This document shows positions 1 to 12,412 of a stretch of 54,684 bases of DNA, in pieces (the stretch's first letter is position 1; the number at the start of each line of letters is the position of its first letter). This stretch comes from a virus (Duplodnaviria > Caudoviricetes): positions 1-54,684 of IMG/VR virus record IMGVR_UViG_3300010399_000045; one strand, given 5' to 3'. Below the pieces are notes generated by a model. That model was given only the letters and a program-made list of their open reading frames with translations. It did no database searches and was not told where the DNA came from. The position numbers and the translations under genes are program-made.

Positions 1-23
1 AACAGGTCCAGCGTGGCGTTGAC

Positions 24-218
24 GTGAAAGAAAAGACCCAGTTCGAGGTGTCGGCCGCCTGGATGAAGTCCTGCGGACTCGGCAGCGAGGCGAAGGTGTT
101 CCCAGTGCTGCGTACGCAGCACTACCCGAAGGCGGCGGACTGGTGTGCGGTGATGGTGATCGTGGAGCGCGACGGCCGCGAGTGGACGGTCGCGCAAGGA
201 CGCGGCAAGTTTATCTGA
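24..218 (+). CDS. Small hypothetical early protein (may start upstream of the window)
   Basis: ORF whose TGA abuts HH1. Confidence 0.6.
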   Translation: MKEKTQFEVSAAWMKSCGLGSEAKVFPVLRTQHYPKAADWCAVMVIVERDGREWTVAQGRGKFI

Positions 219-285
219 GTCGAAACCGGGCCAGGGTGCCCGGTCGCGCAGCACCCGGCCCGCTGCGCCTGATGATGACAGGCCG
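219..285 (+). ncRNA. Type II hammerhead ribozyme HH1 (predicted cleavage after C245)
   Basis: GTC-GAAA-[ccgggc/gcccgg]-TC-[gcgcagc/gctgcgc]-CTGATGA-T-GAC; loop I cggcc pairs with tail ggccg. Confidence 0.92.
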
Positions 286-300
286 ACAGGAGCAGCTGAT

Positions 301-438
301 ATGCTGCGCTTTTTGATTGTCGAGCTGTGCAAGGCGATCCTGACCGTCGTGGTTGCTGCCACCCTGGTCATGTCGTTCGGCGCGTGGCTCGTCGGAGATG
401 AACAGGAGAGACCATATGCCGCGCATGACCGACGCTGA
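301..438 (+). CDS. Small hydrophobic (single TM) hypothetical protein, 45 aa
   Basis: AGGAG RBS after HH1, ATG 301, MLRFLIVELCKAILTVVVAATLVMSFGAWLVG. Confidence 0.55.
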   Translation: MLRFLIVELCKAILTVVVAATLVMSFGAWLVGDEQERPYAAHDRR

Positions 439-626
439 CAAGCAGCGCGCGAAGTCCGAGATGGCGTGCATGTGCCTGACCGCGGTGCGCGACTACCTTG
501 GTTCAACCCGAGGTGCCCATCTCATGGGACCGGGGGCCAAGGCGGAACTCGGCGATCCACAAGACGATCATCGTCACCACCGCCGGTGGCACCTTCAAGG
601 TGGCGGTCAGCGAGTACCCCAACTGA
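416..626 (+). pseudogene. Small early gene with an apparent frameshift near 540-555
   Basis: AGGAG RBS and ATG 416; the +1 frame reads AIHKTIIVTTAGGTFKVAVSEYPN and stops at 624-626, just before HH2 like the other cassettes. Confidence 0.4.
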
Positions 627-630
627 AAGA

Positions 631-699
631 GCCGAAACGCCGCAGGGTGCGGCGTCGGTAGGGAGATGGGCCGACCCTGCCCTGATGATGGCAGGCCCA
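631..699 (+). ncRNA. Type II hammerhead ribozyme HH2 (cleavage after C656)
   Basis: GCC-GAAA-[cgccgca/tgcggcg]-TC-[ggtaggg/ccctgcc]-CTGATGA-T-GGC; loop tgggcc pairs with tail ggccca. Confidence 0.92.
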
Positions 700-715
700 A
701 ACCCGGAGAGAAAAA

Positions 716-916
716 ATGAAGGTCACGATCGATCCGATCGACGTCGACTCGATCACCGTCGAGATCAGTGGTGTGCCACTTCGCCTGTCGATCGACGTGA
801 ACGATTGCCTTCGCATCGAGTCCCAGAAGGACTACCTTGGGGCCGCGGTGCTGGCCAGCAACACGGTCCTGGTGTCGTACCTGTCGCCCCCTCCGAAGAA
901 AAAGGTGCGCAAATGA
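716..916 (+). CDS. Hypothetical protein
   Basis: GGAGAG RBS after HH2. Confidence 0.7.
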   Translation: MKVTIDPIDVDSITVEISGVPLRLSIDVNDCLRIESQKDYLGAAVLASNTVLVSYLSPPPKKKVRK

Positions 917-1362
917 TCACAAAACATCAGGTCAAGGCACTCGAGCGCGAGTTCCCGGAGGGCATCCCCGCATGGATGCTGACGGGCGGCCACAGCGCCG
1001 ACCAGATCCGCGAGCTCATGACGCTGCGGCGTGCCGGCCCCGCCAGATCGGCGGAAGGGCAGGCCCCGGAGCACAACTTCAGTGTCGAACCCGAGCAGTG
1101 GGACGACGCTGTCGTGATGAACGCCGCCTACTTTCAGATCGTCATCGGGCGAAACCCGGTGACGCGCGAGCGGATGCAGTGCAAGGATCTGCCCGAAGCT
1201 GTCAACCTCGCGCGGGTGCTGCTGCACACGGTCGCCGGCCAGAGGCCGATGATCTACGCTGTCACCGCGACCGGCCGCAGCACCATGCTGGTGCCGCAGC
1301 GCTGGGAGCACTACCTCAAACTTTGGGAGAAGCATCATGGGACTGCAAAAGTTTCGGGCTGA
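913..1362 (+). CDS. Hypothetical protein
   Basis: ATGA overlap with previous gene; start MITKHQVK. Confidence 0.7.
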   Translation: MITKHQVKALEREFPEGIPAWMLTGGHSADQIRELMTLRRAGPARSAEGQAPEHNFSVEPEQWDDAVVMNAAYFQIVIGRNPVTRERMQCKDLPEAVNLARVLLHTVAGQRPMIYAVTATGRSTMLVPQRWEHYLKLWEKHHGTAKVSG

Positions 1363-1615
1363 CAAGTTCGACAAGCAGTCGGACGGTGCCGAGATAGGCG
1401 TCTCCGAGTGGCTAGGCGGCCCGACGGTCTCGCTGGTCCGCAACTGCCGCCTCGCCAACCTGGAGGGTAACATGCGTCGCACGGTCTACGCGACAGGCGA
1501 TCCCGACACGTTCTTCTCCATCCCCGCGGTGACCGTGATCGCAGGGTGCCATGTCAACGGGCACCTGACGCTCGACGAGGATTGCCTGACGGTGTTTCGT
1601 CAGTGCTACTACTGA
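1337..1615 (+). CDS. Hypothetical protein
   Basis: GGAG RBS; stop immediately before HH3. Confidence 0.7.
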   Translation: MGLQKFRADKFDKQSDGAEIGVSEWLGGPTVSLVRNCRLANLEGNMRRTVYATGDPDTFFSIPAVTVIAGCHVNGHLTLDEDCLTVFRQCYY

Positions 1616-1617
1616 TC

Positions 1618-1682
1618 GCCGAAACGCCGCGGGTAGCGGCGTCGTGCCGACCTGGTCCACGGCACCTGATGATGGCAGACCA
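1618..1682 (+). ncRNA. Type II hammerhead ribozyme HH3 (cleavage after C1643)
   Basis: GCC-GAAA-[cgccgc/gcggcg]-TC-[gtgccg/cggcac]-CTGATGA-T-GGC; loop tggtc pairs with tail gacca. Confidence 0.92.
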
Positions 1683-1701
1683 AAGATTCAGGAGCAGCCC
1701 A

Positions 1702-1908
1702 ATGGGCAAGCGATACAAGATGCTGAACGGAGAAAAGATGCCGGAGTTTCGCGCGCGCTGCCAGCGGCTCGAGGAGGAGCGGCGGGCGCCACCGCCTCCG
1801 CCGAAGCCCAAGCGGGTGCGCAAGTCCCGTGCCAAGCCGAAGCCCACGCCGATCGCCGACAAGGTCGACGGTTTCGACCGCGACAACCTCGGGTTGTCCC
1901 CCGACTGA
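1702..1908 (+). CDS. Small basic Pro-rich hypothetical protein
   Basis: AGGAG RBS after HH3; stop before HH4. Confidence 0.7.
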   Translation: MGKRYKMLNGEKMPEFRARCQRLEEERRAPPPPPKPKRVRKSRAKPKPTPIADKVDGFDRDNLGLSPD

Positions 1909-1910
1909 TT

Positions 1911-1977
1911 GCCGAAACCCGGACCAGATGTCCGGGTCCGCGCGGCGGTGGTTCCCCGCGCGCTGAAGAGGCAAACC
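1911..1977 (+). ncRNA. Type II hammerhead ribozyme HH4, canonical core without the extra U (cleavage after C1938)
   Basis: GCC-GAAA-[cccggac/gtccggg]-TC-[cgcgcgg/ccgcgcg]-CTGAAGA-GGC; loop ggtt pairs with tail aacc. Confidence 0.93.
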
Positions 1978-1994
1978 CCCGGAGAGATCAAAAG

Positions 1995-2423
1995 ATGATC
2001 AAACATGATGACCACCCGTTCAAGCCGGGCGTGAAGGTCGCGGTGATCAGCGCCTACGGCACCAAGCGCACCTTCCGCGAGGACGAGGTCGCCAAGGTTC
2101 ACAAGACCGGGCGCTTCTCTCTGCAGCAGACGGGTGCGCAGTGGCGCGTGGAGCACGGCACGATCACATACGGCGGGCCGCGTGTCTGGTACGCCGAGCA
2201 ACCGGCCCAGTCTGGTCGCCGCTTCCGCGACCGGGTGCGAGTCCTCGACGAGTCATTCCTCGCCGAGATCGAGGTGGAGAAGGCTGAGGAGGCGCGGCGT
2301 ACGCGCGTGATCGAGGCGGTTCGGACAGCTGAGAAGTTTCTGGGTGGGCGATCGCAGGATCGCCTGACCGACTGGCAGCTCGAGGCACTCGAGACCTTCA
2401 ACAACCTGTGCAAGGAGCACTGA
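1995..2423 (+). CDS. Hypothetical protein
   Basis: GGAGAG RBS after HH4; start MIKHDDHPFKPG. Confidence 0.7.
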   Translation: MIKHDDHPFKPGVKVAVISAYGTKRTFREDEVAKVHKTGRFSLQQTGAQWRVEHGTITYGGPRVWYAEQPAQSGRRFRDRVRVLDESFLAEIEVEKAEEARRTRVIEAVRTAEKFLGGRSQDRLTDWQLEALETFNNLCKEH

Positions 2424-2428
2424 TACAC

Positions 2429-2686
2429 ATGAGCGAGATTATCACCCGAATTGTGGAGCTTGGAAACGCCATGAAAGTTGCCCGGGAACGAAGCGAACTC
2501 GACCGCCTCTACGAGAAGGCGCGTGCCTACGGCGAGATGGTTGTCGACTATGAAGACGACGCCGACCCGGACACGATCTACGACGCGTGGATCCGGGCAG
2601 CGCGCAAGGCGCTCGAGCATGAGCCCGACCGTGCGCTCGCCGAGCAGGCTGCTTCCAAGGTCGCGCAGGCGTTCGCGCAGCCCTGA
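2429..2686 (+). CDS. Hypothetical protein
   Basis: AGGAG RBS; stop before HH5. Confidence 0.65.
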   Translation: MSEIITRIVELGNAMKVARERSELDRLYEKARAYGEMVVDYEDDADPDTIYDAWIRAARKALEHEPDRALAEQAASKVAQAFAQP

Positions 2687-2693
2687 AAGAATC

Positions 2694-2758
2694 GCCGAAA
2701 CCGGGCACCTAGCCCGGTCGTGCGGGGGTGAGCTCCCCGCGCCTGATGATGGCAGCTC
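2694..2758 (+). ncRNA. Type II hammerhead ribozyme HH5 (cleavage after C2719)
   Basis: GCC-GAAA-[ccgggc/gcccgg]-TC-[gtgcgggg/ccccgcgc]-CTGATGA-T-GGC; loop gagct pairs with tail agctc. Confidence 0.92.
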
Positions 2759-2776
2759 TACCTACGGAGAGAACAG

Positions 2777-3766
2777 ATGACCGCAGCTGTAGAGACGATG
2801 GCCTGGACCGGTCAGACACCGTGGCACGGCGAGGGGTTCAAGGTCGACAACAACCTGACGCCCGAGCAGATGGTCGCCGCGGCGAAGATCAACTGGACCG
2901 TGTCCAAGCGCAAGGCCTTCTTCGAGCACGACGGTCAGATGGTACCGGCAAAGGATGAATACGCGCTGGTGCGCGACAGCGACGGCTTCAAGCTGTCGAT
3001 GGTCGGTGCCGGCTACAAACCCGTCCAGAACGCCGACGCCATGGACTTCTTCAAGCGCTTCGTCGACGCCGGTCACATGACGATGGAGACGGCCGGCGCC
3101 CTGTGGAATGGCCGCTACGTGTGGGGCCTCGCGCGGGTCGGCAAGGACTTCAAGCTGGGTAACAAGGACGAGGTGCGCGCGTATCTGCTCCTGTCGTCGC
3201 CGCACGTGCACGGCCGGTCGTTGAATATCCAGTTCACGACCGTGCGTGTCGTGTGCTGGAACACCCTCACGATGGCGCTCGGCGCCAAGCTGGACGGTGG
3301 CAAGGGCAAGGGGTTCCGTGTGCCACACTCGATCGCCTGGAACGATAAGGTGAAGGAGCAGGCGCAGGAGGCCTTCGGGCTCGCCGCGGAGCAGATGGTC
3401 CAATTCAAGGAGGCGGCGACAGTCCTCGTCAAGAAGAAGGCCGCGACGGCCGAGGTCGAGGAGTACTTCTGCGAGGTGATGCGGTACGATCCGAAGGAGA
3501 ACACCCGCAAGAAGAAGGCGGACGGGTCGGAGCGCGAGCCGAGGTCCCTGCCGAAGTTCCGCGCGGCGCTCGAGCACAGCCCCGGCCAGCAGCTGGCGCC
3601 GGCGCTCGGCACCTGGTGGGGCGCCCTGAACGCCGTCACCTTCGTGATCGATCACGAGATCGGTCGCGACCGCACGACGGCCCTGCGCAACGCCTGGATG
3701 GGTCACACCGCAGGCATCAAGCGGCGGGCCCTCGACCTGGCCCTGCAGAAGGCCGTGAAGTCCTGA
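2777..3766 (+). CDS. DUF932-family phage/plasmid protein
   Basis: ETMAW...PWHG, ETAGAL.NGR.VW, VRVVCWNTL and GTWWGALNAVT motifs typical of the family. Confidence 0.85.
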   Translation: MTAAVETMAWTGQTPWHGEGFKVDNNLTPEQMVAAAKINWTVSKRKAFFEHDGQMVPAKDEYALVRDSDGFKLSMVGAGYKPVQNADAMDFFKRFVDAGHMTMETAGALWNGRYVWGLARVGKDFKLGNKDEVRAYLLLSSPHVHGRSLNIQFTTVRVVCWNTLTMALGAKLDGGKGKGFRVPHSIAWNDKVKEQAQEAFGLAAEQMVQFKEAATVLVKKKAATAEVEEYFCEVMRYDPKENTRKKKADGSEREPRSLPKFRAALEHSPGQQLAPALGTWWGALNAVTFVIDHEIGRDRTTALRNAWMGHTAGIKRRALDLALQKAVKS

Positions 3767-3769
3767 ATT

Positions 3770-3842
3770 GCCGAAACCTGCGGGGCCCGACAGCCCCCAG
3801 GTCGTGCCGATCTGGTCCACGGCACCTGATGATGGCAGACCA
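3770..3842 (+). ncRNA. Type II hammerhead ribozyme HH6 (cleavage after C3803)
   Basis: GCC-GAAA-[cctg-c-ggggc/gcccc-cagg]-TC-[gtgccg/cggcac]-CTGATGA-T-GGC; loop tggtc pairs with tail gacca. Confidence 0.92.
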
Positions 3843-3867
3843 AAAAAGTGGAGAGGAAAAGCAGGTC

Positions 3868-4179
3868 ATGGCTGAGATCCACATCACCCTGAACGAGGAT
3901 TCGTACTACAAGTGCCTGACTGACGTCGGTCTTCTAGATCTGATGGCCGTTGCGCACGTCGACCGCGTTGGTGACAACTATCACGTGCGTTTGACCCACA
4001 AGGATCTGGAACAGCTCCTGAAAGGTGAAAAGATCAGCCCAGACGAGTACGCGCACGAATTAGCCTGCCAGCTTGTTCGTCAAAGCCGGCCCAAGAAGAC
4101 GAAAAGTTACCTACTTAGTGCGGCCGTTGTCGTGTGGGCCACGGCGAGCGTACTCCTATTGTTCTTGGCGTATCAATAA
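3868..4179 (+). CDS. Hypothetical protein with C-terminal TM segment
   Basis: ORF between HH6 and HH7; hydrophobic C-terminus. Confidence 0.6.
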   Translation: MAEIHITLNEDSYYKCLTDVGLLDLMAVAHVDRVGDNYHVRLTHKDLEQLLKGEKISPDEYAHELACQLVRQSRPKKTKSYLLSAAVVVWATASVLLLFLAYQ

Positions 4180-4182
4180 ATG

Positions 4183-4255
4183 GCCGAAACCCAGGTCTTC
4201 CAGTGTACCTGGGTCGTCGCGGGCTGGGTACCCGCGGCCTGATGATGGCAACCCA
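4183..4255 (+). ncRNA. Type II hammerhead ribozyme HH7 (cleavage after C4215)
   Basis: GCC-GAAA-[cccaggt/acctggg]-TC-[gtcgcggg/cccgcggc]-CTGATGA-T-GGC; loop tgggt pairs with tail accca. Confidence 0.92.
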
Positions 4256-4271
4256 AACCCGGAGAGAAACG

Positions 4272-5177
4272 ATGTTAAAGAGCTACGAGCAGCGCGCGCA
4301 GGAGTACCTGGGTCGCGACCTCGCGGGCCTCACCGCGTACCTGCAGGGCTGCAGGGTCGACATGCACGAGCCCGACGAGCAGGGTGTCAAGGCAAGTGTA
4401 GTCGGCAGTCACCTGGACAACTCGTTCGGCAATACCGGCACCAACGACGAGCTGGTTGTGCTCCTCGACCGCGACGGCAAGCCACAGGAACGTTTTAACC
4501 TGGCTACACTGATCGCGCTGGCACGGCTCGCCGACCTCGGGTCCTTGATCCCGCGCGAGTATCAGCTGACGCCCCTGCAGATCACGATGCTCCTGCACTA
4601 CCACGCGATCGTTACACCCTACGGCCGCGGCGAGCCGGAGCACGCCAACTCGCCGGCCGTGCGGCAGCAGCGGGAAGCGATGGTGACGATGGGCCTGCTG
4701 TACGCGACCGACGAGTTCCCGTCAGGCTACAGGACGACCGAGGCCGGGCGCCGGCACGTCGAGCGCCTGACGCAGATGAGCCCGGGGCGCGCGTCTGACA
4801 GCACCCCGCTCGACGAGCTGTTCGATGAGCGTGAGCGGCAGCAGAACAACATGATCTTCGCTGCCGCGAATATCAGGGCGCACGCGGAGGCGTTCCGTGA
4901 GGTGACCGACCGCATCGTGAACATCCTCATGACCGGCGGCGGTGGGCACGACGAGGTCATCGACGAGACGGAGGTCATGAACACCGACACCTACGTCGAC
5001 CATGTGCTCATGACCGAGGCGGCTGGCAAGATCGACGAGAAACGCCGGCGTGTCTCCAAGCTCGAGCAGTTGCTGTGTCAGATCGTCGACGCCTACTTTG
5101 GGAAACAGCCTATTCGCGATGCCATCGCTGAGGCACGTGAACTCGTCAAGGACGTGCCACGGGAGGTCAGGTCGTGA
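4272..5177 (+). CDS. Hypothetical, probably multidomain, early protein
   Basis: GGAGAG RBS after HH7; 301 aa ORF. Confidence 0.7.
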   Translation: MLKSYEQRAQEYLGRDLAGLTAYLQGCRVDMHEPDEQGVKASVVGSHLDNSFGNTGTNDELVVLLDRDGKPQERFNLATLIALARLADLGSLIPREYQLTPLQITMLLHYHAIVTPYGRGEPEHANSPAVRQQREAMVTMGLLYATDEFPSGYRTTEAGRRHVERLTQMSPGRASDSTPLDELFDERERQQNNMIFAAANIRAHAEAFREVTDRIVNILMTGGGGHDEVIDETEVMNTDTYVDHVLMTEAAGKIDEKRRRVSKLEQLLCQIVDAYFGKQPIRDAIAEARELVKDVPREVRS

Positions 5178-5373
5178 AGGACGACCTGGTCTGCATCAGG
5201 CCCAGCGCTGGAGGAAACCTCACCTGGGCCAGCAGGGCTGCGTGCATACGCAGCCTGCGCGAGTTCAGCCCGGCCCCGCGGGCTGCGCACCGTGTCGTCC
5301 GGTTCTGGTCGACCCGGTATGGTAAATGGCGGTATTGTCGAGTCCTAGACCCGACTCGGTGCCGCAAACAGAA

Positions 5374-5440
5374 GTCGAAACCGGGCACCTAGCCCGGTCG
5401 TGCGGGGGTGAGCTCCCCGCGCCTGATGATGGCAGCTCAC
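5374..5440 (+). ncRNA. Type II hammerhead ribozyme HH8 (cleavage after C5399)
   Basis: Near-identical to HH5; GTC/GGC stem II; loop gtgagct complementary to tail agctcac. Confidence 0.92.
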
Positions 5441-5464
5441 AGAACATGGAACCCGGAGAGAACC

Positions 5465-6256
5465 ATGCAGGATAACAACAAGATCATCGACAAGATCCGC
5501 AAGGTGCTGGCCCTCACGTCCTCGCCGAACGAGGGTGAGGCGGCGAGCGCGGCAGCACGCGTGCAGGAGATGCTCGCCAAGTACAACCTTCAGCTCGGCG
5601 ACGTCATCGAGAAGAAGGCGGACGAGGCGATCCAGATCTACAAGGGCATGCGCACGCCTTCCCGGCCCTGGTGCCGGCAGATCGCGGTAGCGACCGCCAG
5701 TCTGTACTTCTGCCGCTACTACTACACGTTCGTCAAGGAGGGTGCCGCGCGCAAGTGCGGCTACATCCGCTACGACGAGCACTATTTCGTCGGCCGTCCG
5801 CACAACGCGGCGGTCGCCATGATGATGTTTGAGTACCTGACCAAGACTGTCGAGCGGTTGGCGGTCGCGGGCAGCAAGTCGGTGCCGGCCACCGAGCGGA
5901 CCTCCTACATGACCTCGTTCCGCACAGCCTGCGCCCTGCGCCTGAACGCCCGCATCTACGCCCGGCTCACCGAGACCATCAAGTCGGCGACCCGCAGCAC
6001 CGAGGTCAATGGTAGCGGCGGTGCCCCCAGCAGCAACCTCCCCGCGCTCGCCAGCCTGTACCAGCAGGCGAAGCAGGAACTGCAGGAGTTCATGGATGAG
6101 AACTTCAGCAAGAACAGTATCAAAGAGAAGGTGACCAAGGTCGTCTACAACCACAGCAAAGGTACCCAGGACGGCGACAAGGCCGGTTCCTCGATCGGCC
6201 TCGACCAACAGGTCGGTGCGGGTGGCAAGCCCTCCGCACTGATCGGGAGGACCTGA
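5465..6256 (+). CDS. DUF2786-domain protein
   Basis: KIIDKIRKVLALTSSPNEGEAASAAARVQEMLAKYNL signature. Confidence 0.85.
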   Translation: MQDNNKIIDKIRKVLALTSSPNEGEAASAAARVQEMLAKYNLQLGDVIEKKADEAIQIYKGMRTPSRPWCRQIAVATASLYFCRYYYTFVKEGAARKCGYIRYDEHYFVGRPHNAAVAMMMFEYLTKTVERLAVAGSKSVPATERTSYMTSFRTACALRLNARIYARLTETIKSATRSTEVNGSGGAPSSNLPALASLYQQAKQELQEFMDENFSKNSIKEKVTKVVYNHSKGTQDGDKAGSSIGLDQQVGAGGKPSALIGRT

Positions 6257-6258
6257 TC

Positions 6259-6462
6259 ATGGCTCGAATGATCGTCAGCGAGCGCGAGCGCCTGCTTCAC
6301 GGCGCCGTCCACGACCTCAGCAGCGCATTGCAGCACGTGCTGCGCGCGATCGACCTGTCGCAGGCGAACGGCGACGCGAGTGTCACCGTTCGCCAACCCC
6401 TGATCGAGGCACTCGCGTGCATCGACACAAGCCGCATCGAACTGGAAGGATTCATCGGATAA
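6259..6462 (+). CDS. Hypothetical protein
   Basis: GGAGG RBS; stop before HH9. Confidence 0.65.
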   Translation: MARMIVSERERLLHGAVHDLSSALQHVLRAIDLSQANGDASVTVRQPLIEALACIDTSRIELEGFIG

Positions 6463-6463
6463 A

Positions 6464-6531
6464 GCCGAAACGGCGCGCGTCGTCGCGCCGTCGTGCCGAT
6501 CTGGTCCACGGCACCTGATGATGGCAAACCA
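6464..6531 (+). ncRNA. Type II hammerhead ribozyme HH9 (cleavage after C6492)
   Basis: GCC-GAAA-[cggcgcg/cgcgccg]-TC-[gtgccg/cggcac]-CTGATGA-T-GGC; loop tggt pairs with tail acca. Confidence 0.92.
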
Positions 6532-6549
6532 AACCCGGAGAGAAACCAC

Positions 6550-7011
6550 ATGACCAAAGGTCGCAAGGTCAACCCGAGATATGCAAGCAAGAAGCGGACA
6601 CCCCGCCCGACGAGGGAAGAGTTGAGCCGGCGTCTGCAGGATCTCAGTACAGAACTGCGCATCGTGGAATCTGTGCGCGCCAGTGCCGAGGAGCGTGCAG
6701 GCCGATACTGGGAGGAGATCACGAAGCTGAAGCAGTACCTGGAGGAGGCCCAGGCAGGATCACGACATGCCTATGAGCAGCGCGACGATACGATACGCGA
6801 GCGCAACGAGGCCGAGGCTCGCATGTGGCGCCAGGCAGGAGCGCTGCAGCTGATCTGGGCCGAGTTCGCGCCGTACAACATGCTCGGCGCTGACCCCAAT
6901 CGCCTGAAGAACTCGCTGCGCGTGATCCACGGCATCGCCGAGCAGGCACTCGGCAGACAGAGCCTGGGTTGCGGCCTTTTCGAGGCCGCGCAACTGCGGA
7001 AGACCAACTAG
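6550..7011 (+). CDS. Coiled-coil hypothetical protein
   Basis: GGAGAG RBS after HH9; TAG overlaps the first base of HH10. Confidence 0.7.
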   Translation: MTKGRKVNPRYASKKRTPRPTREELSRRLQDLSTELRIVESVRASAEERAGRYWEEITKLKQYLEEAQAGSRHAYEQRDDTIRERNEAEARMWRQAGALQLIWAEFAPYNMLGADPNRLKNSLRVIHGIAEQALGRQSLGCGLFEAAQLRKTN

Positions 7012-7077
7012 CCGAAACCGGGCGCCCTTCGCCCGGTCGCGCGGACCTGACCCGCCGCGCCTGATGATGGCAGGTCG
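7011..7077 (+). ncRNA. Type II hammerhead ribozyme HH10 (cleavage after C7038)
   Basis: GCC-GAAA-[ccgggcg/cgcccgg]-TC-[gcgcgg/ccgcgc]-CTGATGA-T-GGC; loop gacc pairs with tail ggtc. Confidence 0.92.
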
Positions 7078-7103
7078 AAACAAAATTCCCCGGAGAGAAA
7101 GAT

Positions 7104-7289
7104 ATGATCACCGAAAACAAGCTGAAACGCGTACCGCGCATCTACCGCTGGATTGAGGGCTACGCCACTCTCATGGTCGGTGGTGGTGGTGTCATGATGC
7201 TGCTCCAGCAGCCCCTTTGGGCGATCGCCTTCTTCACTGGCGCGATCGCTCTAAAGCTGGACCTGCGCGACACAAGGGAGGGTTACTGA
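7104..7289 (+). CDS. Small membrane protein
   Basis: RBS after HH10; two hydrophobic stretches. Confidence 0.65.
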   Translation: MITENKLKRVPRIYRWIEGYATLMVGGGGVMMLLQQPLWAIAFFTGAIALKLDLRDTREGY

Positions 7290-7519
7290 TGGTACGGGAA
7301 AAGGAGGTCGTAAATCTCGAGTGCCTCGACCGCGACGACCTGTCGGATTACATCCGCAAGCACCAGGACGATCCGGCCTACAGCTACCAGGTGTCGATCG
7401 CGCAAACCATCCGTGAGGCCCAGGCGGCGCAGTTGACAGGGCAGATCTCCCGCGCCCTCACCCTCGAGAAGCATGCGGACGCGCTCTACAAGCTCCTGCC
7501 GCAGGAGGAGCGCTGGTGA
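7289..7519 (+). CDS. Hypothetical protein
   Basis: TGATG coupling, GGAGG RBS; stop before HH11. Confidence 0.65.
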   Translation: MVREKEVVNLECLDRDDLSDYIRKHQDDPAYSYQVSIAQTIREAQAAQLTGQISRALTLEKHADALYKLLPQEERW

Positions 7520-7522
7520 GAA

Positions 7523-7590
7523 GTCGAAACGGCGCGATGACGCGCCGTCGTGCAGCACCCGGCCCCGCTGCGCCTGATGATGACAGGGCC
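7523..7590 (+). ncRNA. Type II hammerhead ribozyme HH11 (cleavage after C7549)
   Basis: GTC-GAAA-[cggcgcg/cgcgccg]-TC-[gtgcagc/gctgcgc]-CTGATGA-T-GAC; loop ggccc pairs with tail gggcc. Confidence 0.92.
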
Positions 7591-7604
7591 CCCGGAGAGA
7601 GAAG

Positions 7605-7964
7605 ATGAAGAAGGCATCAGTTGACCCACGCGAAGCGCGCCTGCCGGTTTGGGCACGCGACGAGCTCGACACGCTACGCCGCAAGGTCACGGATCTGCAG
7701 AAGGCGCTCACAACTATCACCGAGTGCAACAAACCGGCCCAGTTCTGGGTCGACCTCGGGCCATCGAGCAACACCCCCGGTCGCTTCTACCTGCAACAGC
7801 CGCGGATGCACTTCGGCGTGGACCCGATGGACGACGGTTTCGGTACCCAGCACCTGCAGCTGATCCATCGCGAGGAAGGTGGTCAGCACTACCTCGAGAT
7901 CAACGGCAAGCAGGCCCTGTACGTGCGTCCGTATGCTAGCAACGTCCTGCGGATCATGGTGTGA
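7605..7964 (+). CDS. Hypothetical protein
   Basis: GGAGAG RBS after HH11. Confidence 0.7.
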   Translation: MKKASVDPREARLPVWARDELDTLRRKVTDLQKALTTITECNKPAQFWVDLGPSSNTPGRFYLQQPRMHFGVDPMDDGFGTQHLQLIHREEGGQHYLEINGKQALYVRPYASNVLRIMV

Positions 7965-8320
7965 GCACCATGACCAAGTTCAAGCAGGGCAAGGAAGCTG
8001 CGGACCGGGTGCGCCAGCACCACGCGGACGAAGAGCAGTACGAACTGCCCGAACCCGACGTGACCCCCGCTACCCACCCCGACCATCACACGGTCGGCAA
8101 GGAGTTCATGGGTCACGACTACCGGCGACACGGGTGGCCCGCGGTGCGCTGGTTCTGCGAGTCACATGACCGATGCGGCTACTGGATGTACGCGACCGAC
8201 GGGTCCGGTCATTGGACCAATGTGTCGGAGCGCGCAATCGGCCGCAGCTTCCACGAGATCGAGCGCTTGCCGTCCGGTCGCCTGATCTGTGCGGGCTGGC
8301 GGGTTCCAACTTATACTTGA
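7961..8320 (+). CDS. Hypothetical protein
   Basis: GTGA overlap with previous gene. Confidence 0.6.
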   Translation: MSTMTKFKQGKEAADRVRQHHADEEQYELPEPDVTPATHPDHHTVGKEFMGHDYRRHGWPAVRWFCESHDRCGYWMYATDGSGHWTNVSERAIGRSFHEIERLPSGRLICAGWRVPTYT

Positions 8321-8331
8321 AAGGAGGAGAC

Positions 8332-9171
8332 ATGCGTGCGCAGCGAAGGACCGCCGAACCTCGATGGGGTGTCGTCGGAGCTGCGATTACGTTGGCTGCC
8401 GCTGCCGGTTACTTCAGTGTAACCGGCATGGCAGCACTCTATGCGGGGTCGGCGATCGGGGTCAGCGTAATCTTTGCGGCGATCGAGATCGGTAAATTGG
8501 CAACCGCCGCTTCCCTGCATCGCTACTGGCCCGGTCTGTCGTGGGTCGTTCGGATCGGACTGATGGTGGCCCTGCTGGCCGCCATGCTCCTGACCTCGGC
8601 TGGTGTGTACGGCTACCTTCTGCGGGCCTACCTGTCGCGCGCACCAGCACTCACCTCAGCGCAGCAGGTGGTAGCCTCACAAGAACGCCTGATCGTCGAC
8701 CTGGAAGCGCGCCTGCGTGCGGCGCCTGCCAAGATCAACCTGCCTTCTCGCATCTCGTCCCGCGCGATGACGATCGCTGCACAGGCGCAGGCAGCAGAAC
8801 AAAAGAGACAGGCGACAGATAGAATGCGCCTGACGACCGAGTACCAAGCTGCTCTACAACGGCTGGCGGAATTGCGCACAACAGCGGCCGAGGTGGAGGT
8901 GGAACTTGGACCCGCAAGAACACTCGCCACGTGGCTCAACCTGGGGCAGTCCGGTGCTGTAGAGGTGCTGACCTTGATCTCGGTGTTGTGCCTCGATCCG
9001 CTAGCCGTCCTGCTGATGATGGCCGGCAGTGGGCGCGCACAAAACCTTCCTATCAGGCGGGTCAAGAAGAAACGAAAAAGTCTCAAGAAGAAGGTGCGTA
9101 AAAGCTTACCGCGAGTAACACCAACCTACACAACACCAGTAGCGCGTTTAACAAGCAGCAAGAAGGGGTAA
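8332..9171 (+). CDS. Membrane protein (3 TM + coiled coil + TM, basic tail)
   Basis: AGGAGG RBS; hydrophobic helices; DPLAVLLMMA. Confidence 0.7.
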   Translation: MRAQRRTAEPRWGVVGAAITLAAAAGYFSVTGMAALYAGSAIGVSVIFAAIEIGKLATAASLHRYWPGLSWVVRIGLMVALLAAMLLTSAGVYGYLLRAYLSRAPALTSAQQVVASQERLIVDLEARLRAAPAKINLPSRISSRAMTIAAQAQAAEQKRQATDRMRLTTEYQAALQRLAELRTTAAEVEVELGPARTLATWLNLGQSGAVEVLTLISVLCLDPLAVLLMMAGSGRAQNLPIRRVKKKRKSLKKKVRKSLPRVTPTYTTPVARLTSSKKG

Positions 9172-9176
9172 AACCT

Positions 9177-9356
9177 ATGGGTATCGAAGAGATCCGCGCC
9201 GCACTTGCGCGGCGCGTCATGGAGCGGGGTCGACAGGCGGCTGTTGAGTCCCGAGTGCTGGACGTGGTCCGGTGCCTCCAAGAACTGCTCGGCCTGCTGC
9301 CCGAGGACGAGGTCGAGCAGTTCAGACAGGAGATCCAGACATGCGGCGAGTTATGA
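9177..9356 (+). CDS. Small hypothetical protein
   Basis: ATG 9177 to TGA 9356 fills the gap between genes. Confidence 0.5.
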   Translation: MGIEEIRAALARRVMERGRQAAVESRVLDVVRCLQELLGLLPEDEVEQFRQEIQTCGEL

Positions 9357-9503
9357 TCTTTACAGCATCGGTGGTACCGGCGCTGTGCTTCACCGCGTTC
9401 ATGGCGGTGGCGCACTACTGCCAGGTCAAGCAAGCGCTCGGTCTGCCGACCACTTTCTGCACCAGGCGGTGATGCCTGGTATGATCGGAGAGGAGTTTAG
9501 CAT

Positions 9504-9944
9504 ATGAAACGATACACGGTACACGACTACGTGGTGCGAGCACTTGCTGGATCTGTGTCACGCGGATACGTGACGACCGATCCGCTGGTGGTCGCTGAGA
9601 TCGAGAAGTTCTACAAGTACGCGCGCGAGATGTACGGCTACTCGCGTAGCGGTGCCGACAGGTGGCTCTCGTGTGCGAGCAGTGAGCGGTTAGACGCTGT
9701 GGTCGACCAGATCAGGGATGCCGATAAGCTCCTTCGCTTCAAGGCGGCCTGGGATCGGCTGAGCTCGGAGCAGCGGCAGCAGGTCGTCAATTGGGTCGAG
9801 GTGTTGTCAGCGACAGGTCGTCAGGTCGATCAGGGACCCGCCAGCCCGCAGACGCCTCAGGTCACCTGTGACCGCTGCGGCATCCTGAAGCGGCCCGCGA
9901 ATGAGGCGGATCACAACTGCGGAAGCTGCGGGGAACTGATATGA
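9504..9944 (+). CDS. Hypothetical protein with C-terminal CxxC...CxxC Zn ribbon
   Basis: AGGAG RBS; CDRC...CGSC. Confidence 0.65.
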   Translation: MKRYTVHDYVVRALAGSVSRGYVTTDPLVVAEIEKFYKYAREMYGYSRSGADRWLSCASSERLDAVVDQIRDADKLLRFKAAWDRLSSEQRQQVVNWVEVLSATGRQVDQGPASPQTPQVTCDRCGILKRPANEADHNCGSCGELI

Positions 9945-10171
9945 CAGATCAGGAACCCAAACGTGTCGACGTGCAGGTTATGGAGCTGCTGCCCGGTCTG
10001 ATGAACCGCGTCCTGCGGCTCATCGAATGGGGTGGGTACAGTAAACCGAAGACGCTGTCCTTGCCGAACTACACCGTCAGGCATCTGAGCCTGAAGACCG
10101 GAAGCATCTTCTGGCAACAGAGGCGTTCATTCGGTCACAAGGAACCGGCCAACTGGTACAAGGTGCTCTGA
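9941..10171 (+). CDS. Hypothetical protein
   Basis: ATGA overlap, coupled to primase. Confidence 0.55.
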   Translation: MTDQEPKRVDVQVMELLPGLMNRVLRLIEWGGYSKPKTLSLPNYTVRHLSLKTGSIFWQQRRSFGHKEPANWYKVL

Positions 10172-11172
10172 TGGACTGGGAGCACACCCTGTCGCAGCAC
10201 GGGGTGCCCTACGCGACCCGCGGGCCTAACGTGGCCCGCGGTGCGATAGCTGTAAAATGTCCGTTCTGCGGGCCGGCAGATCCGTCCGAGCACCTGGTCA
10301 TCGACCTCGGTGGCAAGGGTTGGCTCTGCCGGCGCTCGCGTGAGCACAGGGGCCGCTCCGCGACACGCCTTCTGCAGGCGCTCCTGGGCTGCACGCGCGA
10401 GCAGGCGCAGCGCCTATCAGGCGAGCGCAGCATCCCCGACGATATGCTGTCGATCGTCCGCGCGCGCCTGGGCCTCGACCTGCCTGCGGCTGTGCAGATG
10501 CGGAAACCACCGAACATGCCTGCCGGGTTCAAGCGATTCACCGGACTGCCCTCGTCGCGCCCGTTTGTCCACTATCTAGCGGGGCGGGGTTTTGACGACC
10601 GGCAGATCCGCGACATGATTGACAGATACGACCTGCGGTACTGTGTGCGGGGTTCGTTCGGCGGCCGGGTGATCTTCCCAATCAAGAGAGACGGCACACT
10701 GGTGTCGTGGACCGGCAGATCTATCAGCGCCGGGGCGCGCCTGCGGTACAAGACGCTGCCCGAGGACCCGGACGCTGCACGCGACCTCGACTGCGATCCG
10801 GCGGTCGCGCCCATATCGCACTACCTGCTGTGGGAAGACGAGCTGCGCGCGACCGAGGCCGACACCGTATCGATATCTGAAGGTCCTTTTGACGCACTAC
10901 GTGTAGCGCTCCTGGGCCGCGAGCTCGGCGTTTGTGGCACCTGTGTGTTCACCGCCGAACCGTCCGACGAGCAGGTCGGACTACTTCACGAGATCTTGCC
11001 TCGATTCAAACGGCGACTGCTCCTGCTGGATCAGAGTACTGTTAACGCGACGATGCGGATCAGCGCCGCACTCGCCGGGTTGTCAGTTGAACCTGTGTAC
11101 CTGCCAGCAGGGTTGAAGGACCCAGGTGAGATTCGCAGTACAAAAGACCTGGCCCAAGTCCTTTCTATATAA
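10171..11172 (+). CDS. DNA primase (Zn finger + TOPRIM)
   Basis: CPFC...H...C; RVIFPI...SWTGRSI; ISEGPFDA; KDPGE. Confidence 0.88.
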   Translation: MDWEHTLSQHGVPYATRGPNVARGAIAVKCPFCGPADPSEHLVIDLGGKGWLCRRSREHRGRSATRLLQALLGCTREQAQRLSGERSIPDDMLSIVRARLGLDLPAAVQMRKPPNMPAGFKRFTGLPSSRPFVHYLAGRGFDDRQIRDMIDRYDLRYCVRGSFGGRVIFPIKRDGTLVSWTGRSISAGARLRYKTLPEDPDAARDLDCDPAVAPISHYLLWEDELRATEADTVSISEGPFDALRVALLGRELGVCGTCVFTAEPSDEQVGLLHEILPRFKRRLLLLDQSTVNATMRISAALAGLSVEPVYLPAGLKDPGEIRSTKDLAQVLSI

Positions 11173-11185
11173 CCGACGATTTTTC

Positions 11186-11214
11186 TTGAGGTAAAGTCCG
11201 CTTTACCCTACCTT
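11186..11214 (+). promoter_or_regulatory. Putative sigma70-type promoter with palindromic spacer
   Basis: TTGAGG-17 bp-TACCTT; overlapping inverted repeat GGTAAAG-tccg-CTTTACC (11190-11207). Confidence 0.45.
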
Positions 11215-11338
11215 GACTCTATGCCGAGTTGCGTGGCATCTCTCCGCGGTGCTGGGGACCCCCGTCGCAATAGTCCCCGTTTACTCTTTTACTGAACAGG
11301 GTTCGGAGAGCTTGGAGTCAAAAGGGAGGCAGGGCCCG

Positions 11339-11893
11339 ATGATAGGCAAAGCACCGATGGCACCCGGTATGGATCAGGGTGCTCTGGGATGGATGATCAG
11401 GACAGCGAGAAAGAACCACTGGCGGGTTTCCGCCTACATCGATCTGGACGACCTGATGCAGGACGGGTACTTTTACTGGTTACGGATCGGCAGCAGGTAC
11501 CCAGATGTCAAGGACCAGCCGCTCCGCATGCGCTTGTTTCAAACCGCATTCAACAATCACCTTACAAATCTGGCGACTCGACGCACCCGCCAACCGAACT
11601 TCCTCCCCCTGATGGTGCAGCAGCTCGAAGAAGAAGCCGGCCGAACGCCTGAGCACGAGCTGATCGAACTCCCCCCAACGACCATCGCCTACTCGGATCA
11701 TGGTATCTGTCGCAACCTAGTACGCCGCGCGATTGAAGCGCTCGGCAGCGACGCTGGTGCCGCCGCATGGCGTGCTCCGTACGACCGGCGAGCCGACGGC
11801 ACACGCGAGACTACCAACGAGCGGCTGTGCCGCATCGTGGGCGTGGACCCCACCCAGATCAACATGCTTGCAGTACTCCGCGCGGCGCTCTGA
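11339..11893 (+). CDS. Sigma-factor-like protein (region 2-like)
   Basis: IDLDDLMQDGYFYW...F.TAFNNHL resembles sigma70/ECF region 2; GGGAGG RBS. Confidence 0.55.
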   Translation: MIGKAPMAPGMDQGALGWMIRTARKNHWRVSAYIDLDDLMQDGYFYWLRIGSRYPDVKDQPLRMRLFQTAFNNHLTNLATRRTRQPNFLPLMVQQLEEEAGRTPEHELIELPPTTIAYSDHGICRNLVRRAIEALGSDAGAAAWRAPYDRRADGTRETTNERLCRIVGVDPTQINMLAVLRAAL

Positions 11894-11946
11894 TACGCCG
11901 CGGTATGTACCTGGTACAAGGTCTTCTACCTGGAGAGACAAACAAG

Positions 11947-12411
11947 ATGCCAGTTGAGATCACCCGGCGCGTCGAGTTCGACGCCGGTCATCGCATTCCG
12001 AACCATGCGTCAAAATGCCGCAACATCCACGGTCACCGCTACCGCCTGGAGGCGACCGTGTCAGGGGCCGTCCTAGAAGCCCGCGGCGAGTCGGACGACG
12101 GGATGATCGTCGACTTCGGCCTCCTCAAGCAGGTCATGAGCGAGTGTGTCGCCGACAGGTGGGACCACGCCTTCCTCTGCTGGGAGGGTGACCACTCGAT
12201 GTGCTGGGTTCTGGAGCACGCGCGCGACGAGCTCGGCGATCACCGCACGGTCATCATGCCCGATGTGCCGACCGCCGAGAACTTGGCACAGGCGGCCTTC
12301 CGCCTGATCGACGGGGGGTTGCAAACGGCAGGCGCACCGTTCGAGCTCGTGCGGGTGCGCCTGTACGAGACCCCGAACTGCTGGGCCGACGCGACGAGGG
12401 GGGAGACCTGA
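11947..12411 (+). CDS. queD: 6-carboxy-5,6,7,8-tetrahydropterin synthase
   Basis: FDAGHRI...KCRNIHGHRY, DFG.LK, WDHAFL, PTAENLA, RLYETP. Confidence 0.93.
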   Translation: MPVEITRRVEFDAGHRIPNHASKCRNIHGHRYRLEATVSGAVLEARGESDDGMIVDFGLLKQVMSECVADRWDHAFLCWEGDHSMCWVLEHARDELGDHRTVIMPDVPTAENLAQAAFRLIDGGLQTAGAPFELVRVRLYETPNCWADATRGET

Positions 12412-12412
12412 G

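What the first reader, a model, noticed from the sequence alone, without database searches (positions are those of the whole stretch)
219..7590. Array of 11 hammerhead ribozymes punctuating the phage early operon
Seen: 11 elements with the order stemII(GCC or GTC)-GAAA-stemIII-UC-stemI-CUGANGA-(U)-stemII(GGC or GAC), starting at 219, 631, 1618, 1911, 2694, 3770, 4183, 5374, 6464, 7011 and 7523. Stem sequences differ between copies but always pair. Nine follow an intact gene's stop codon within 0-7 nt; HH2 follows the frameshifted gene and HH8 follows a structured region. All lie upstream of the next RBS. Known: this is the hammerhead catalytic core in type II topology with a GUC cleavage triplet, and hammerheads are known from bacteria and phages. 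Inference: the phage uses protein-free self-cleavage to cut one early transcript into RNAs carrying one to three genes, of about 411, 987, 295, 781, 1084, 412, 1184, 1093, 546 and 511 nt. This parallels RNase III processing of T7 early mRNA. I do not know of a described phage using such a regular ribozyme array this way.
Basis: partly seen in the sequence, partly recalled or inferred. Interest (0 to 1): 0.97.

Follow-up and report, generated by a model that had tools for sequence, protein, structure and literature searches.

The report
Eleven-hammerhead ribozyme array in phage operon
An uncultured soil phage places eleven well-formed self-cutting hammerhead RNAs between the small genes at one end of its genome, probably chopping one long message into short ones; this layout has been known in phages since 2011, so this is a large, regular example and not a new kind of system.

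Summary
All 11 elements are at the stated coordinates on the + strand. Each has the full hammerhead core, the GUC site, three paired stems and type II topology.

- Rfam RF02276 matches all 11 full length: 7 reach the gathering score and 4 fall below it (35.0, 34.4, 33.2, 27.7 bits).
- A model built from the 11 copies finds no twelfth in the remaining 47 kb.
- Stems covary: 96.6% of cells are paired, and 9 of 16 pairs change on both sides.
- Every copy has a 4-6 bp loop I/3'-tail pseudoknot.

The processing reading is plausible but untested. No RNA run holds this DNA.

The novelty claim fails. Perreault et al. 2011 (PMC3088659) described multiple hammerheads flanking single genes or short gene blocks in prophages. 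They proposed the same processing role and showed cleavage for three tandem arrangements.

Larger arrays exist. I found 17 copies in each of two Streptomyces genomes and 9 in a 6.1-kb viral contig. This scan has also reported similar arrays on other DNA (7, 9, 10 and at least 12 copies, and a note of up to about 25).

Two contigs with a 62%-identical DUF932 gene keep hammerheads beside it. More distant relatives do not.

Verdict: a new member of a known kind, of modest interest.

The parts
219..287 (+). HH1, a type II hammerhead with a GUC/GAC stem II. Cleavage is predicted after C245. The loop I/tail pseudoknot is 5 bp.
   Evidence: RF02276 33.2 bits, below the gathering score of 37; R1 78.4 bits; parse.
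631..700 (+). HH2. Cleavage is predicted after C656. The pseudoknot is 6 bp.
   Evidence: RF02276 47.2 bits; parse.
1618..1684 (+). HH3. Cleavage is predicted after C1643. The pseudoknot is 5 bp.
   Evidence: RF02276 47.3 bits; parse; the minimum-free-energy fold equals the three-way junction.
1911..1980 (+). HH4. It is the only copy with CUGAAGA and the only one without the extra U. Cleavage is predicted after C1938. The pseudoknot is 4 bp.
   Evidence: RF02276 41.9 bits; parse; the minimum-free-energy fold equals the three-way junction.
2694..2761 (+). HH5. Cleavage is predicted after C2719. The pseudoknot is 4 bp. It is almost identical to HH8.
   Evidence: RF02276 48.8 bits.
3770..3844 (+). 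HH6. Stem III is long and has a bulged C. Cleavage is predicted after C3803. The pseudoknot is 5 bp.
   Evidence: RF02276 35.0 bits, below the gathering score; R1 72.5 bits. The homologue in related contig L277 shows a U-A to C-G compensatory change in stem III.
4183..4257 (+). HH7. Cleavage is predicted after C4215. The pseudoknot is 5 bp.
   Evidence: RF02276 45.1 bits; parse.
5374..5441 (+). HH8. Stem II has a G-U pair (GUC/GGC). Cleavage is predicted after C5399. The pseudoknot is 5 bp.
   Evidence: RF02276 48.2 bits; parse.
6464..6533 (+). HH9. Cleavage is predicted after C6492. The pseudoknot is 4 bp.
   Evidence: RF02276 41.9 bits; parse.
7011..7079 (+). HH10. Its first base is the G of the upstream TAG stop codon. 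Cleavage is predicted after C7038. The pseudoknot is 4 bp.
   Evidence: RF02276 34.4 bits, below the gathering score; R1 80.1 bits.
7523..7592 (+). HH11, with a GUC/GAC stem II. Cleavage is predicted after C7549. The pseudoknot is 5 bp. It is the last copy of the array.
   Evidence: RF02276 27.7 bits, below the gathering score; R1 69.8 bits.
2777..3766 (+). DUF932 gene, flanked by HH5 and HH6.
   Evidence: Pfam PF06067 E=2.3e-43; phrog_1221. Relatives at 62% identity are also flanked by hammerheads.
5465..6256 (+). DUF2786 + DUF7168 gene, the first gene after HH8.
   Evidence: Pfam PF10979 and PF23771; phrog_421.
3..7964 (+). Co-directional block of about 20 small genes, mostly without a known family, that the array punctuates. 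Each inter-ribozyme fragment carries one to three genes.
   Evidence: ORF lists and GC3 values. The RBS motif CGGAGAGA follows 8 of the 11 hammerheads and occurs only once elsewhere on the + strand.

Best explanation
The stretch holds eleven genuine type II hammerhead ribozymes. Each sits between a stop codon and the ribosome-binding site of the next gene, in a co-directional block of small phage genes upstream of the replication module.

Most likely the block is transcribed as one or a few long RNAs, and each ribozyme cuts itself after its GUC during or soon after transcription. That would give RNAs of 295-1184 nt carrying one to three genes.

Type II hammerheads are open at stem II. Because of this, every upstream product would end in the stem III hairpin plus one nucleotide, with a 2',3'-cyclic phosphate. 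Every downstream product would begin with a 5'-hydroxyl at the foot of the stem I hairpin, followed 55-65 nt later by the start codon.

Shown here: ribozyme identity, structure, covariation and placement. Inferred: cleavage in the cell, a single precursor, early timing, and any benefit such as end-protected messages with independent stability and translation.
For: **Core and model.**
- The core nucleotides, the GUC site and the three stems are present in 11 of 11 copies.
- RF02276 matches are full length for 11 of 11, and 7 are above the gathering score.
- The same family gives no hit in 14 control genomes.

**Structure.**
- Stem covariation is far above the shuffled and slid controls.
- A Watson-Crick pseudoknot of 4-6 bp joins loop I and the 3' tail in 11 of 11 copies. 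The summed length is 52 bp, against a shuffled-tail mean of 34.7 and maximum of 46, with 0 of 5000 shuffles reaching 52.
- Perreault 2011 showed this pseudoknot to be needed for fast cleavage (passages).

**Placement.**
- Gaps from the upstream stop codon are -1 to 7 nt for 10 copies, and the 5' UTR after cleavage is 55-65 nt.
- A shared RBS motif follows 8 of 11 copies.
- The array is confined to 219-7592, with no copy in the other 47 kb.
- No sigma-70-like promoter lies on the + strand, and terminator-like sites do not exceed chance.
- Predicted folds put the stem III hairpin 1 nt from the 3' end of all 11 upstream products.

**Relatives.**
- L277, a roughly 90% identical relative, keeps hammerheads in the HH6 and HH7 slots. 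It shows one compensatory U-A to C-G change, pair-preserving one-sided changes, and a change at the free N7 position.
- L251 and L252, with a DUF932 gene 62% identical at the protein level, keep hammerheads beside the gene. Their stems are entirely different and their pseudoknot is 7 bp.

**Precedent.** Tandem prophage hammerheads cleave in vitro and in E. coli (PMC3088659 passages). Three type II hammerheads were found cleaved in Desulfovibrio vulgaris RNA (PMC8782182 abstract and passages).
Against: - There is no RNA evidence of any kind for this phage.
- Four of 11 copies are below Rfam's gathering score.
- Ten of 11 copies have an extra U between A9 and stem II. Its effect on catalysis was not tested here. 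The variant is common: at least 113 viral and at least 120 genomic stretches match it exactly.
- Nested minimum-free-energy folding gives the clean three-way junction in only 4 of 11 copies (HH3-HH6) and roughly in 2 more. Z-scores are -0.9 to -3.0.
- Predicted accessibility of the Shine-Dalgarno/start region is the same in precursor and product (0.58 against 0.60; Wilcoxon p=0.41). Cleavage is therefore not predicted to unmask translation.
- The contig is a fragment that begins inside a gene. The promoter, the true start of the array and the timing class cannot be seen.
- Promoters that are not of the sigma-70 type would not have been detected.
Confidence: 0.75

Rival explanations
1. Cassette-junction reading. 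The main role of the ribozyme units is at the level of genome evolution. Their conserved cores act as joints at which genes and half-ribozymes are exchanged between phages and between slots, and RNA cleavage is secondary or incidental.
For: **Ribozyme halves are shared independently of each other.**
- 5' halves: HH2 and HH3 are 96% identical, and HH5 and HH8 are 96% identical.
- 3' halves: HH3, HH6 and HH9 are 95-98% identical, and HH1 and HH11 are 88% identical.
- The other half of the same copies is only about 60-80% identical.

**Neighbouring genes are unrelated.** No pair of array proteins matches at E<0.05.

**Relatives show exchanges.**
- In relative L277 the HH7 slot carries an HH6-like stem III.
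- A related contig in run X4 lacks 1890-2410 (HH4 plus one gene), with 23 other letters in its place.

**Gene content differs completely between arrays**. Perreault 2011 also says that gene identities are not constant.
Against: - The catalytic core is intact in 11 of 11 copies. Stems and pseudoknot are kept by compensatory change. That pattern is expected only if the RNA fold is under selection.
- The X4 deletion does not end at ribozyme borders.
- The microhomology at the GUC junction is only 3-4 nt, which is a poor substrate for homologous recombination (inference).
- This reading can be true in addition to RNA processing rather than instead of it.
Confidence: 0.1
2. Regulated rather than constitutive cleavage. 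The ribozymes cut only under certain conditions (Mg2+, temperature, a host or phage factor). They would then act as switches that time expression or change message stability during infection.
For: - Perreault 2011 raises regulated cleavage for phage hammerheads (Discussion passage).
- The extra U next to A9 in 10 of 11 copies, and the short 3-bp stem II, could lower basal activity (inference).
- Alternative minimum-free-energy folds compete with the active fold in about 5 of 11 copies.
Against: - No ligand-binding or extra domain is present. The copies are minimal, 67-75 nt.
- The tertiary pseudoknot that gives fast cleavage is present in all copies.
- Tandem prophage hammerheads tested in 2011 cleaved efficiently during transcription.
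Confidence: 0.1
3. Ligation reading. The 5'-OH and 2',3'-cyclic-phosphate ends are rejoined by the ribozyme itself or by an RtcB-type ligase. This would give circular or spliced RNAs.
For: The end chemistry fits RtcB substrates (established knowledge). Perreault 2011 names this possibility.
Against: - Perreault 2011 state that they could not detect spliced or circular products (data not shown in that paper).
- No RtcB, RNA ligase or polynucleotide kinase family was found among the 50 window proteins scanned with Pfam. Only about half of the genome is in hand.
- After cleavage the two ends of one fragment belong to different ribozymes with different stems, so self-templated circularisation has no obvious helix (inference).
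Confidence: 0.05

Closest known systems
Clustered hammerhead ribozymes flanking genes in prophages (Perreault et al. 2011, PLoS Comput Biol, PMC3088659; passages read)
   Same: - Several hammerheads lie on one strand, close together.
- They flank single genes or short gene blocks of variable identity in phage DNA.
- The type II topology with a loop I/3'-tail pseudoknot is the same.
[quoted passage not shown]
- An anti-restriction gene (ardA) sits in one published array. Here the array holds DUF932 and DUF2786 genes.
   Different: - Copy number: 11 in 7.4 kb here. The published arrangements that were tested were described as triple or tandem, on fragments of about 2 kb.
- I could not see Figure 3, the supplementary figures or Dataset S1, so the largest published array is unknown to me.
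- This one is in an uncultured free-phage contig and has had no biochemical test.
Rfam RF02276, Hammerhead_II
   Same: All 11 copies align full length (model positions 1-66). Core, stems and 3' tail are in the consensus order.
   Different: - Four copies score below the gathering threshold.
- Ten copies have an inserted U after CUGAUGA, which the model treats as an insertion.
- Two copies use U-A in stem II instead of C-G.
Larger arrays found here: 17 copies in Streptomyces mangrovi CGMCC 4.7117 (L249) and 17 in Streptomyces sp. NPDC057253 (L250); 9 in a 6.1-kb IMG/VR contig (L039)
   Same: The layout is the same: stop codon, hammerhead, about 40 nt, next start codon, all on one strand.
   Different: - No protein similarity to the window's array genes at E<=1e-3.
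- The two Streptomyces arrays lie in bacterial chromosome contigs where local GC is 63%, with an Lsr2 gene downstream of the L249 array. They are probably prophages or other integrated elements, but this was not shown.
RNase III processing of phage T7 early mRNA, and synthetic ribozyme insulators such as RiboJ (both recalled from memory, not looked up)
   Same: A polycistronic message is cut between genes into defined units with structured ends.
   Different: T7 processing uses a host protein enzyme. RiboJ is engineered. Here the cutter would be encoded in the RNA itself and repeated 11 times.

Membership tests
Hammerhead ribozyme, type II (RF02276) | Conserved core C3 U4 G5 A6 N7 G8 A9 and G12 A13 A14 | tested here: met
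   11 of 11 copies have CUGA(U/A)GA and GAAA.
Hammerhead ribozyme, type II (RF02276) | A15.1-U16.1 pair and cleavage-site nucleotide H17 (not G) | tested here: met
   11 of 11 copies have an A...U pair closing stem III, followed by C (GUC).
Hammerhead ribozyme, type II (RF02276) | Three helices around the core, supported by covariation | tested here: met
   96.6% of cells are paired. 9 of 16 pairs change on both sides. The covariation score is 0.531 against 0.143 in shuffles (0 of 500 reach it) and at most 0.094 when partners are slid.
Hammerhead ribozyme, type II (RF02276) | Type II topology: the 5' and 3' ends leave through stem II, and stems I and III are closed by loops | tested here: met
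   The order of elements is the same in 11 of 11 copies. All align full length to the type II model.
Hammerhead ribozyme, type II (RF02276) | Score at or above Rfam's gathering threshold (37 bits) | tested here: inconclusive
   7 of 11 copies are above it (41.9-48.8 bits). 4 of 11 are below it (35.0, 34.4, 33.2, 27.7).
Hammerhead ribozyme, type II (RF02276) | Tertiary contact between stems I and II, here a loop I/3'-tail pseudoknot | tested here: met
   11 of 11 copies have 4-6 Watson-Crick pairs. The summed length is 52 bp, and 0 of 5000 tail shuffles reach it.
Hammerhead ribozyme, type II (RF02276) | Stem II pair 10.1-11.1 directly next to A9 and G12 | tested here: inconclusive
   10 of 11 copies have an extra U between A9 and the first stem II pair. 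The exact variant is widespread: at least 113 viral and at least 120 genomic stretches. Its activity was not tested.
Hammerhead ribozyme, type II (RF02276) | Mg2+-assisted self-cleavage giving 2',3'-cyclic-phosphate and 5'-OH ends | not testable with these tools
   No RNA run holds this DNA. This needs bench work.
Clustered phage/prophage hammerheads (Perreault 2011) | [quoted passage not shown] | tested here: met
   11 copies lie in 7.4 kb, with 1-3 genes between neighbours. The phage context is shown by primase, DNA polymerase, baseplate and tail-fibre families.
Clustered phage/prophage hammerheads (Perreault 2011) | Gene identities between the ribozymes are not constant from array to array | tested here: met
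   No protein match at E<=1e-3 between this array's genes and 9 other loci that hold arrays.

The most novel reading that the evidence does not exclude
The array may be more than a row of cutters. It may be a modular junction system.

Half-ribozymes are exchanged independently, both between slots and between related phages. One half is stem II 5' strand, GAAA and stem III. The other half is stem I, the core, stem II 3' strand and the pseudoknot tail. The breakpoint lies at the cleavage site, and the adjacent genes are unrelated.

If this exchange is what lets phages add, drop and reorder small early genes, every resulting message would still end up capped by a hairpin at both ends. Only the type II topology gives that property. 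Hammerhead arrays of 9-17 or more copies would then be a general gene-cassette architecture of phages, comparable in role to integron attC sites but working through an RNA fold.
Probability: 0.15. Interest if true: 0.6.

Novelty: new member of a known kind. Interest (0 to 1): 0.3.

Why it matters
The biological role of bacterial and phage hammerheads is still described as largely elusive (review PMC6765202, passage). A very regular 11-copy array is a clean natural test bed for the idea that phages use protein-free RNA cutting to turn one transcript into many independently stable messages. The 17-copy arrays in two cultivable Streptomyces strains found here serve the same purpose.

The kind of system, its proposed role and its basic biochemistry have been in print since 2011. 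This scan has already met similar arrays on other DNA. This instance therefore adds an example and some comparative detail, not a new principle.

Tried and rejected
1. **RNA evidence.** The look-up of sequencing runs listed no RNA holder. The four DNA runs laid are contigs only and say nothing on expression or RNA ends.

2. **Close relatives among deposited phages.**
   - blastn of 1-8000 against 50,697 phage records gave no match.
   - The DNA polymerase finds only relatives at 34% identity or less. There is no cultured stand-in.

3. **Is the hammerhead a property of the DUF932 or DUF2786 gene family?**
   - The DUF2786 query found no relative in viral contigs.
   - I scanned 30 loci with DUF932 relatives using R1 at E<=0.01.
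   - Three loci have a hammerhead next to the gene: L277, L251 and L252.
   - Two more (L267, L270) have one about 7 kb away on the other strand.
   - Twenty-five have none.
   - Twenty of the distant loci also gave no Rfam family at gathering score.
   - The link is therefore specific to the lineage and does not extend to the whole gene family.

4. **Does cleavage free the ribosome-binding site?** Predicted unpaired probability of the SD-AUG region is 0.58 before and 0.60 after cleavage (p=0.41). The idea has no support from this nested-only thermodynamic test.

5. **Thermodynamic folding alone.** Z-scores are -0.9 to -3.0, and the clean hammerhead fold appears in 4 of 11 copies. This is weak by itself, so I rely on the covariance model and on covariation instead.

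6. **Duplicated cassettes as the source of shared ribozyme halves.** No paralogy was found among 20 array ORFs at E<0.05.

7. **RNA repair or ligase genes in the window.** None was found among the 50 proteins scanned with Pfam. One nucleotidyltransferase-like hit (31075-31677) is below Pfam's cut-off.

8. **REP-like repeats or terminators.** Rejected. The elements match a ribozyme model with an intact core, they covary, and they lack U-tracts.

9. **Literature.** Six full-text searches found no paper on large hammerhead arrays in phages or Streptomyces beyond Perreault 2011 and reviews that cite it. Supplements and figures were not visible, so the largest published array size is unknown to me.

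Full report
**What the window is.** It is a whole IMG/VR virus record of 54,684 bases. It is linear and estimated at about 54% complete, with 63% GC.
- Beyond the array it encodes a primase, a family A DNA polymerase, an SSB-like protein, an SbcC-like nuclease, a baseplate wedge protein and tail fibres.
- It also encodes a clamp-loader-like ATPase, a RecA-like protein and a queuosine-type cluster of PTPS/QueD, QueC, FolE and a TGT-like gene.
- It is therefore a tailed phage.
- No deposited phage is close. blastn found nothing, and the polymerase is at most 34% identical to any record.
- DNA runs that hold it are soil and rhizosphere metagenomes.

**The observation.** All 11 elements are present on the + strand at the stated starts.
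- A parse that picks the best stem III/stem I split gives the same layout for every copy.
- That layout is a 3-bp stem II, GAAA, a stem III of 5+5 to 8 pairs closed by A-U, C17, a stem I of 6-9 pairs, CUGAUGA (CUGAAGA in HH4), an extra U in 10 of 11 copies, and the stem II 3' strand.
- C17 falls at 245, 656, 1643, 1938, 2719, 3803, 4215, 5399, 6492, 7038 and 7549.

**Independent model.** Rfam RF02276 reports 7 copies above its gathering score and 2 just below it in whole-window scans.
- HH1 scores 33.2 bits and HH11 scores 27.7 bits when short stretches are scanned.
- All 11 matches are full length.
- The family rings in none of 14 control genomes.

**No further copies.** Model R1 was built from the 11 copies and run without filters.
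- It finds the 11 copies, which is by construction.
- It finds nothing else above 14.7 bits, so the array ends at 7592.
- The remaining 47 kb has none.

**Is it more than chance?**
- Stem covariation is strong. 96.6% of cells are paired, 9 of 16 pairs show changes on both sides, and the score is 0.531. Shuffles give 0.143 (0 of 500 reach the observed value) and slid partners give at most 0.094.
- Each copy can also form a pseudoknot of 4-6 Watson-Crick pairs between loop I and the bases just after stem II.
- The paired words differ from copy to copy. The summed length of 52 bp is reached by 0 of 5000 tail shuffles, whose mean is 34.7 and maximum 46.
- Against this, nested minimum-free-energy folding gives the clean three-way junction in only 4 of 11 copies, and z-scores are modest.

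**Placement.**
- Ten hammerheads begin -1 to 7 nt after an upstream stop codon.
- One of these, HH2, follows a gene whose coding frame switches from frame 2 to frame 0 between about 476 and 535, judged by GC3.
- HH8 lies 196 nt after the stop of the 4272-5177 gene.
- The ORF 5174-5392 fills that gap. It starts in a GTGA overlap with the previous stop and ends in the loop of HH8's stem III.
- In a related contig of run X4, 12 of the 20 listed substitutions in 5179-5356 fall on the third codon position of this frame (my count). The ORF has no Pfam match, so this stays tentative.
- The next start codon lies 55-65 nt after each cleavage site.
- The motif CGGAGAGA follows 8 of the 11 ribozymes and occurs once elsewhere on the + strand.
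- No sigma-70-like promoter is predicted on the + strand in 1-9000, and terminator-like sites are at the chance level.

**Relatives.**
- L277 is a 1248-nt metagenome contig about 90% identical to 3623 onward. It keeps hammerheads in the HH6 and HH7 slots.
  - Its HH6 has a U-A to C-G double change in stem III and a U to C change at the unconstrained N7.
  - Its HH7 keeps stem I through pair-preserving single changes.
  - Its HH7 carries an HH6-like stem III.
- L251 and L252 have a DUF932 gene 62% identical at the protein level. They have hammerheads directly before the gene, and L251 also has one after it.
  - Their stems are quite different, they have no extra U, and their pseudoknot is 7 bp.
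  - L251 has a GUU site.
- Of the remaining 27 of the 30 loci scanned, 25 have no hammerhead. Two have one far away on the other strand.
- Twenty of them have no Rfam family at all at gathering score.

**Arrays elsewhere.** The exact core variant occurs in at least 113 viral and at least 120 genomic stretches.
- Hosts named in the genome records span Planctomycetota, Clostridia, Streptomyces and others.
- Most of the 83 viral loci I scanned have one to three copies.
- One 6.1-kb contig has 9 RF02276 matches, 8 of them above the cut-off. Another contig has 6 and a third has 7.
- Two Streptomyces genomes each carry 17 copies on one strand within about 10.3 kb.
- A plain regex confirms 17 on the + strand and 0 on the - strand in each 18-kb locus.
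- ORFs there fit the same layout of stop, hammerhead, about 40 nt and start.
- None of those arrays shares a protein with this one.
- The scan's own records list similar arrays on other DNA. I did not check those notes.

**What is known.** In passages of Perreault et al. 2011 (PMC3088659) I read the following.
[quoted passage not shown] - Three tandem arrangements gave the expected products in vitro.
- The Agrobacterium one, around ardA, also cleaved in E. coli.
- Spliced or circular products were not detected.
- The type II pseudoknot is needed for fast cleavage.

A 2019 review (PMC6765202; passages) still calls the bacterial roles largely elusive. A 2021 methods paper (PMC8782182; abstract and passages) detected cleavage of three type II hammerheads in Desulfovibrio vulgaris RNA. 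I could not see figures or supplements.

**How it most likely works.**
- Shown: 11 intact, covarying type II hammerheads in intergenic slots of a co-directional gene block.
- Inferred: the block is transcribed as a long RNA and each ribozyme cuts after its GUC.
- From the topology it follows that each upstream product ends with the stem III hairpin plus C17. Predicted folds put that hairpin 1 nt from the 3' end in 11 of 11 copies.
- Each downstream product starts at the base of stem I.
- That such ends slow 3' exonucleases and 5'-end-dependent decay is established for E. coli-type decay (recalled). It is untested here.
- A simple in-silico test gave no sign that cleavage opens the ribosome-binding site.

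**Verdict.** The processing role is likely but unproven. The novelty claim does not hold, so this is a large, regular new member of a known kind.

Noticed in passing
window 219-7592; L277 149-637: Ribozyme halves are shared independently of each other. The 5' halves of HH2 and HH3, and of HH5 and HH8, are 96% identical. The 3' halves of HH3, HH6 and HH9 are 95-98% identical, and those of HH1 and HH11 are 88% identical. The other halves are about 60-80% identical, and the adjacent genes are unrelated. In relative L277 the HH7 slot has an HH6-like stem III.
   Followed up: partly
window 416-661: The gene before HH2 changes coding frame from frame 2 to frame 0 between about 476 and 535, judged by GC3. 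Frame 2 stays open into HH2 as far as 661. This could be a frameshift, an assembly error or a pseudogene; I did not resolve which.
   Followed up: partly
window 5174-5392: The gap before HH8 is filled by a 72-codon ORF. It starts in a GTGA overlap with the previous stop and ends in the loop of HH8's stem III. In a related contig, 12 of the 20 listed substitutions fall on its third codon positions. It has no Pfam match. It may be a small gene rather than a structured RNA.
   Followed up: partly
L249 (Streptomyces mangrovi CGMCC 4.7117) 4066-14350; L250 (Streptomyces sp. NPDC057253) 3610-14001: Each locus holds 17 type II hammerheads on one strand in about 10.3 kb, with one gene between most neighbours. 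Local GC is 63%. An Lsr2 gene lies downstream of the L249 array. These are cultivable hosts in which the array idea could be tested.
   Followed up: partly
L039 5049-5185 (- strand): Two RF02276 hammerheads sit back to back, only 3 nt apart, inside a 9-copy array on a 6.1-kb viral contig.
   Followed up: no
window 1890-2410: A related contig in run X4 joins 1889 to 2411 with 23 other letters in between. It therefore lacks HH4 and the 1995-2423 gene. The ends of the gap are not at ribozyme borders.
   Followed up: no
window 1655-1681, 2696-2758, 3815-3830, 5405-5409: Contigs of the probable source run break at the repeated ribozyme modules, and the 63-nt piece shared by HH5 and HH8 has double depth. 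The order of cassettes in the record depends on the assembler having resolved repeats of up to about 66 nt. L277 independently confirms the order DUF932 gene, HH6, next gene, HH7.
   Followed up: partly
window 11767-17030: PTPS/QueD-like (11767-12411), QueC (13965-14765), GTP cyclohydrolase I (14767-15435) and a queuine tRNA-ribosyltransferase-like gene (15921-17030) lie together. This fits a 7-deazaguanine DNA-modification cluster.
   Followed up: no
window 31075-35489: A nucleotidyltransferase-like ORF has a sub-threshold PolyA_pol head match (31075-31677). It is followed by a cpYpsA SLOG protein (32700-33224), a metallophosphoesterase (33221-34243) and an SPFH/Band 7 protein (34593-35489).
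   Followed up: no
L277 640-1248 compared with window 4272-5177: In the related contig, the gene after HH7 starts at what corresponds to about residue 100 of the window's 301-residue protein. The N-terminal part is therefore absent there.
   Followed up: no
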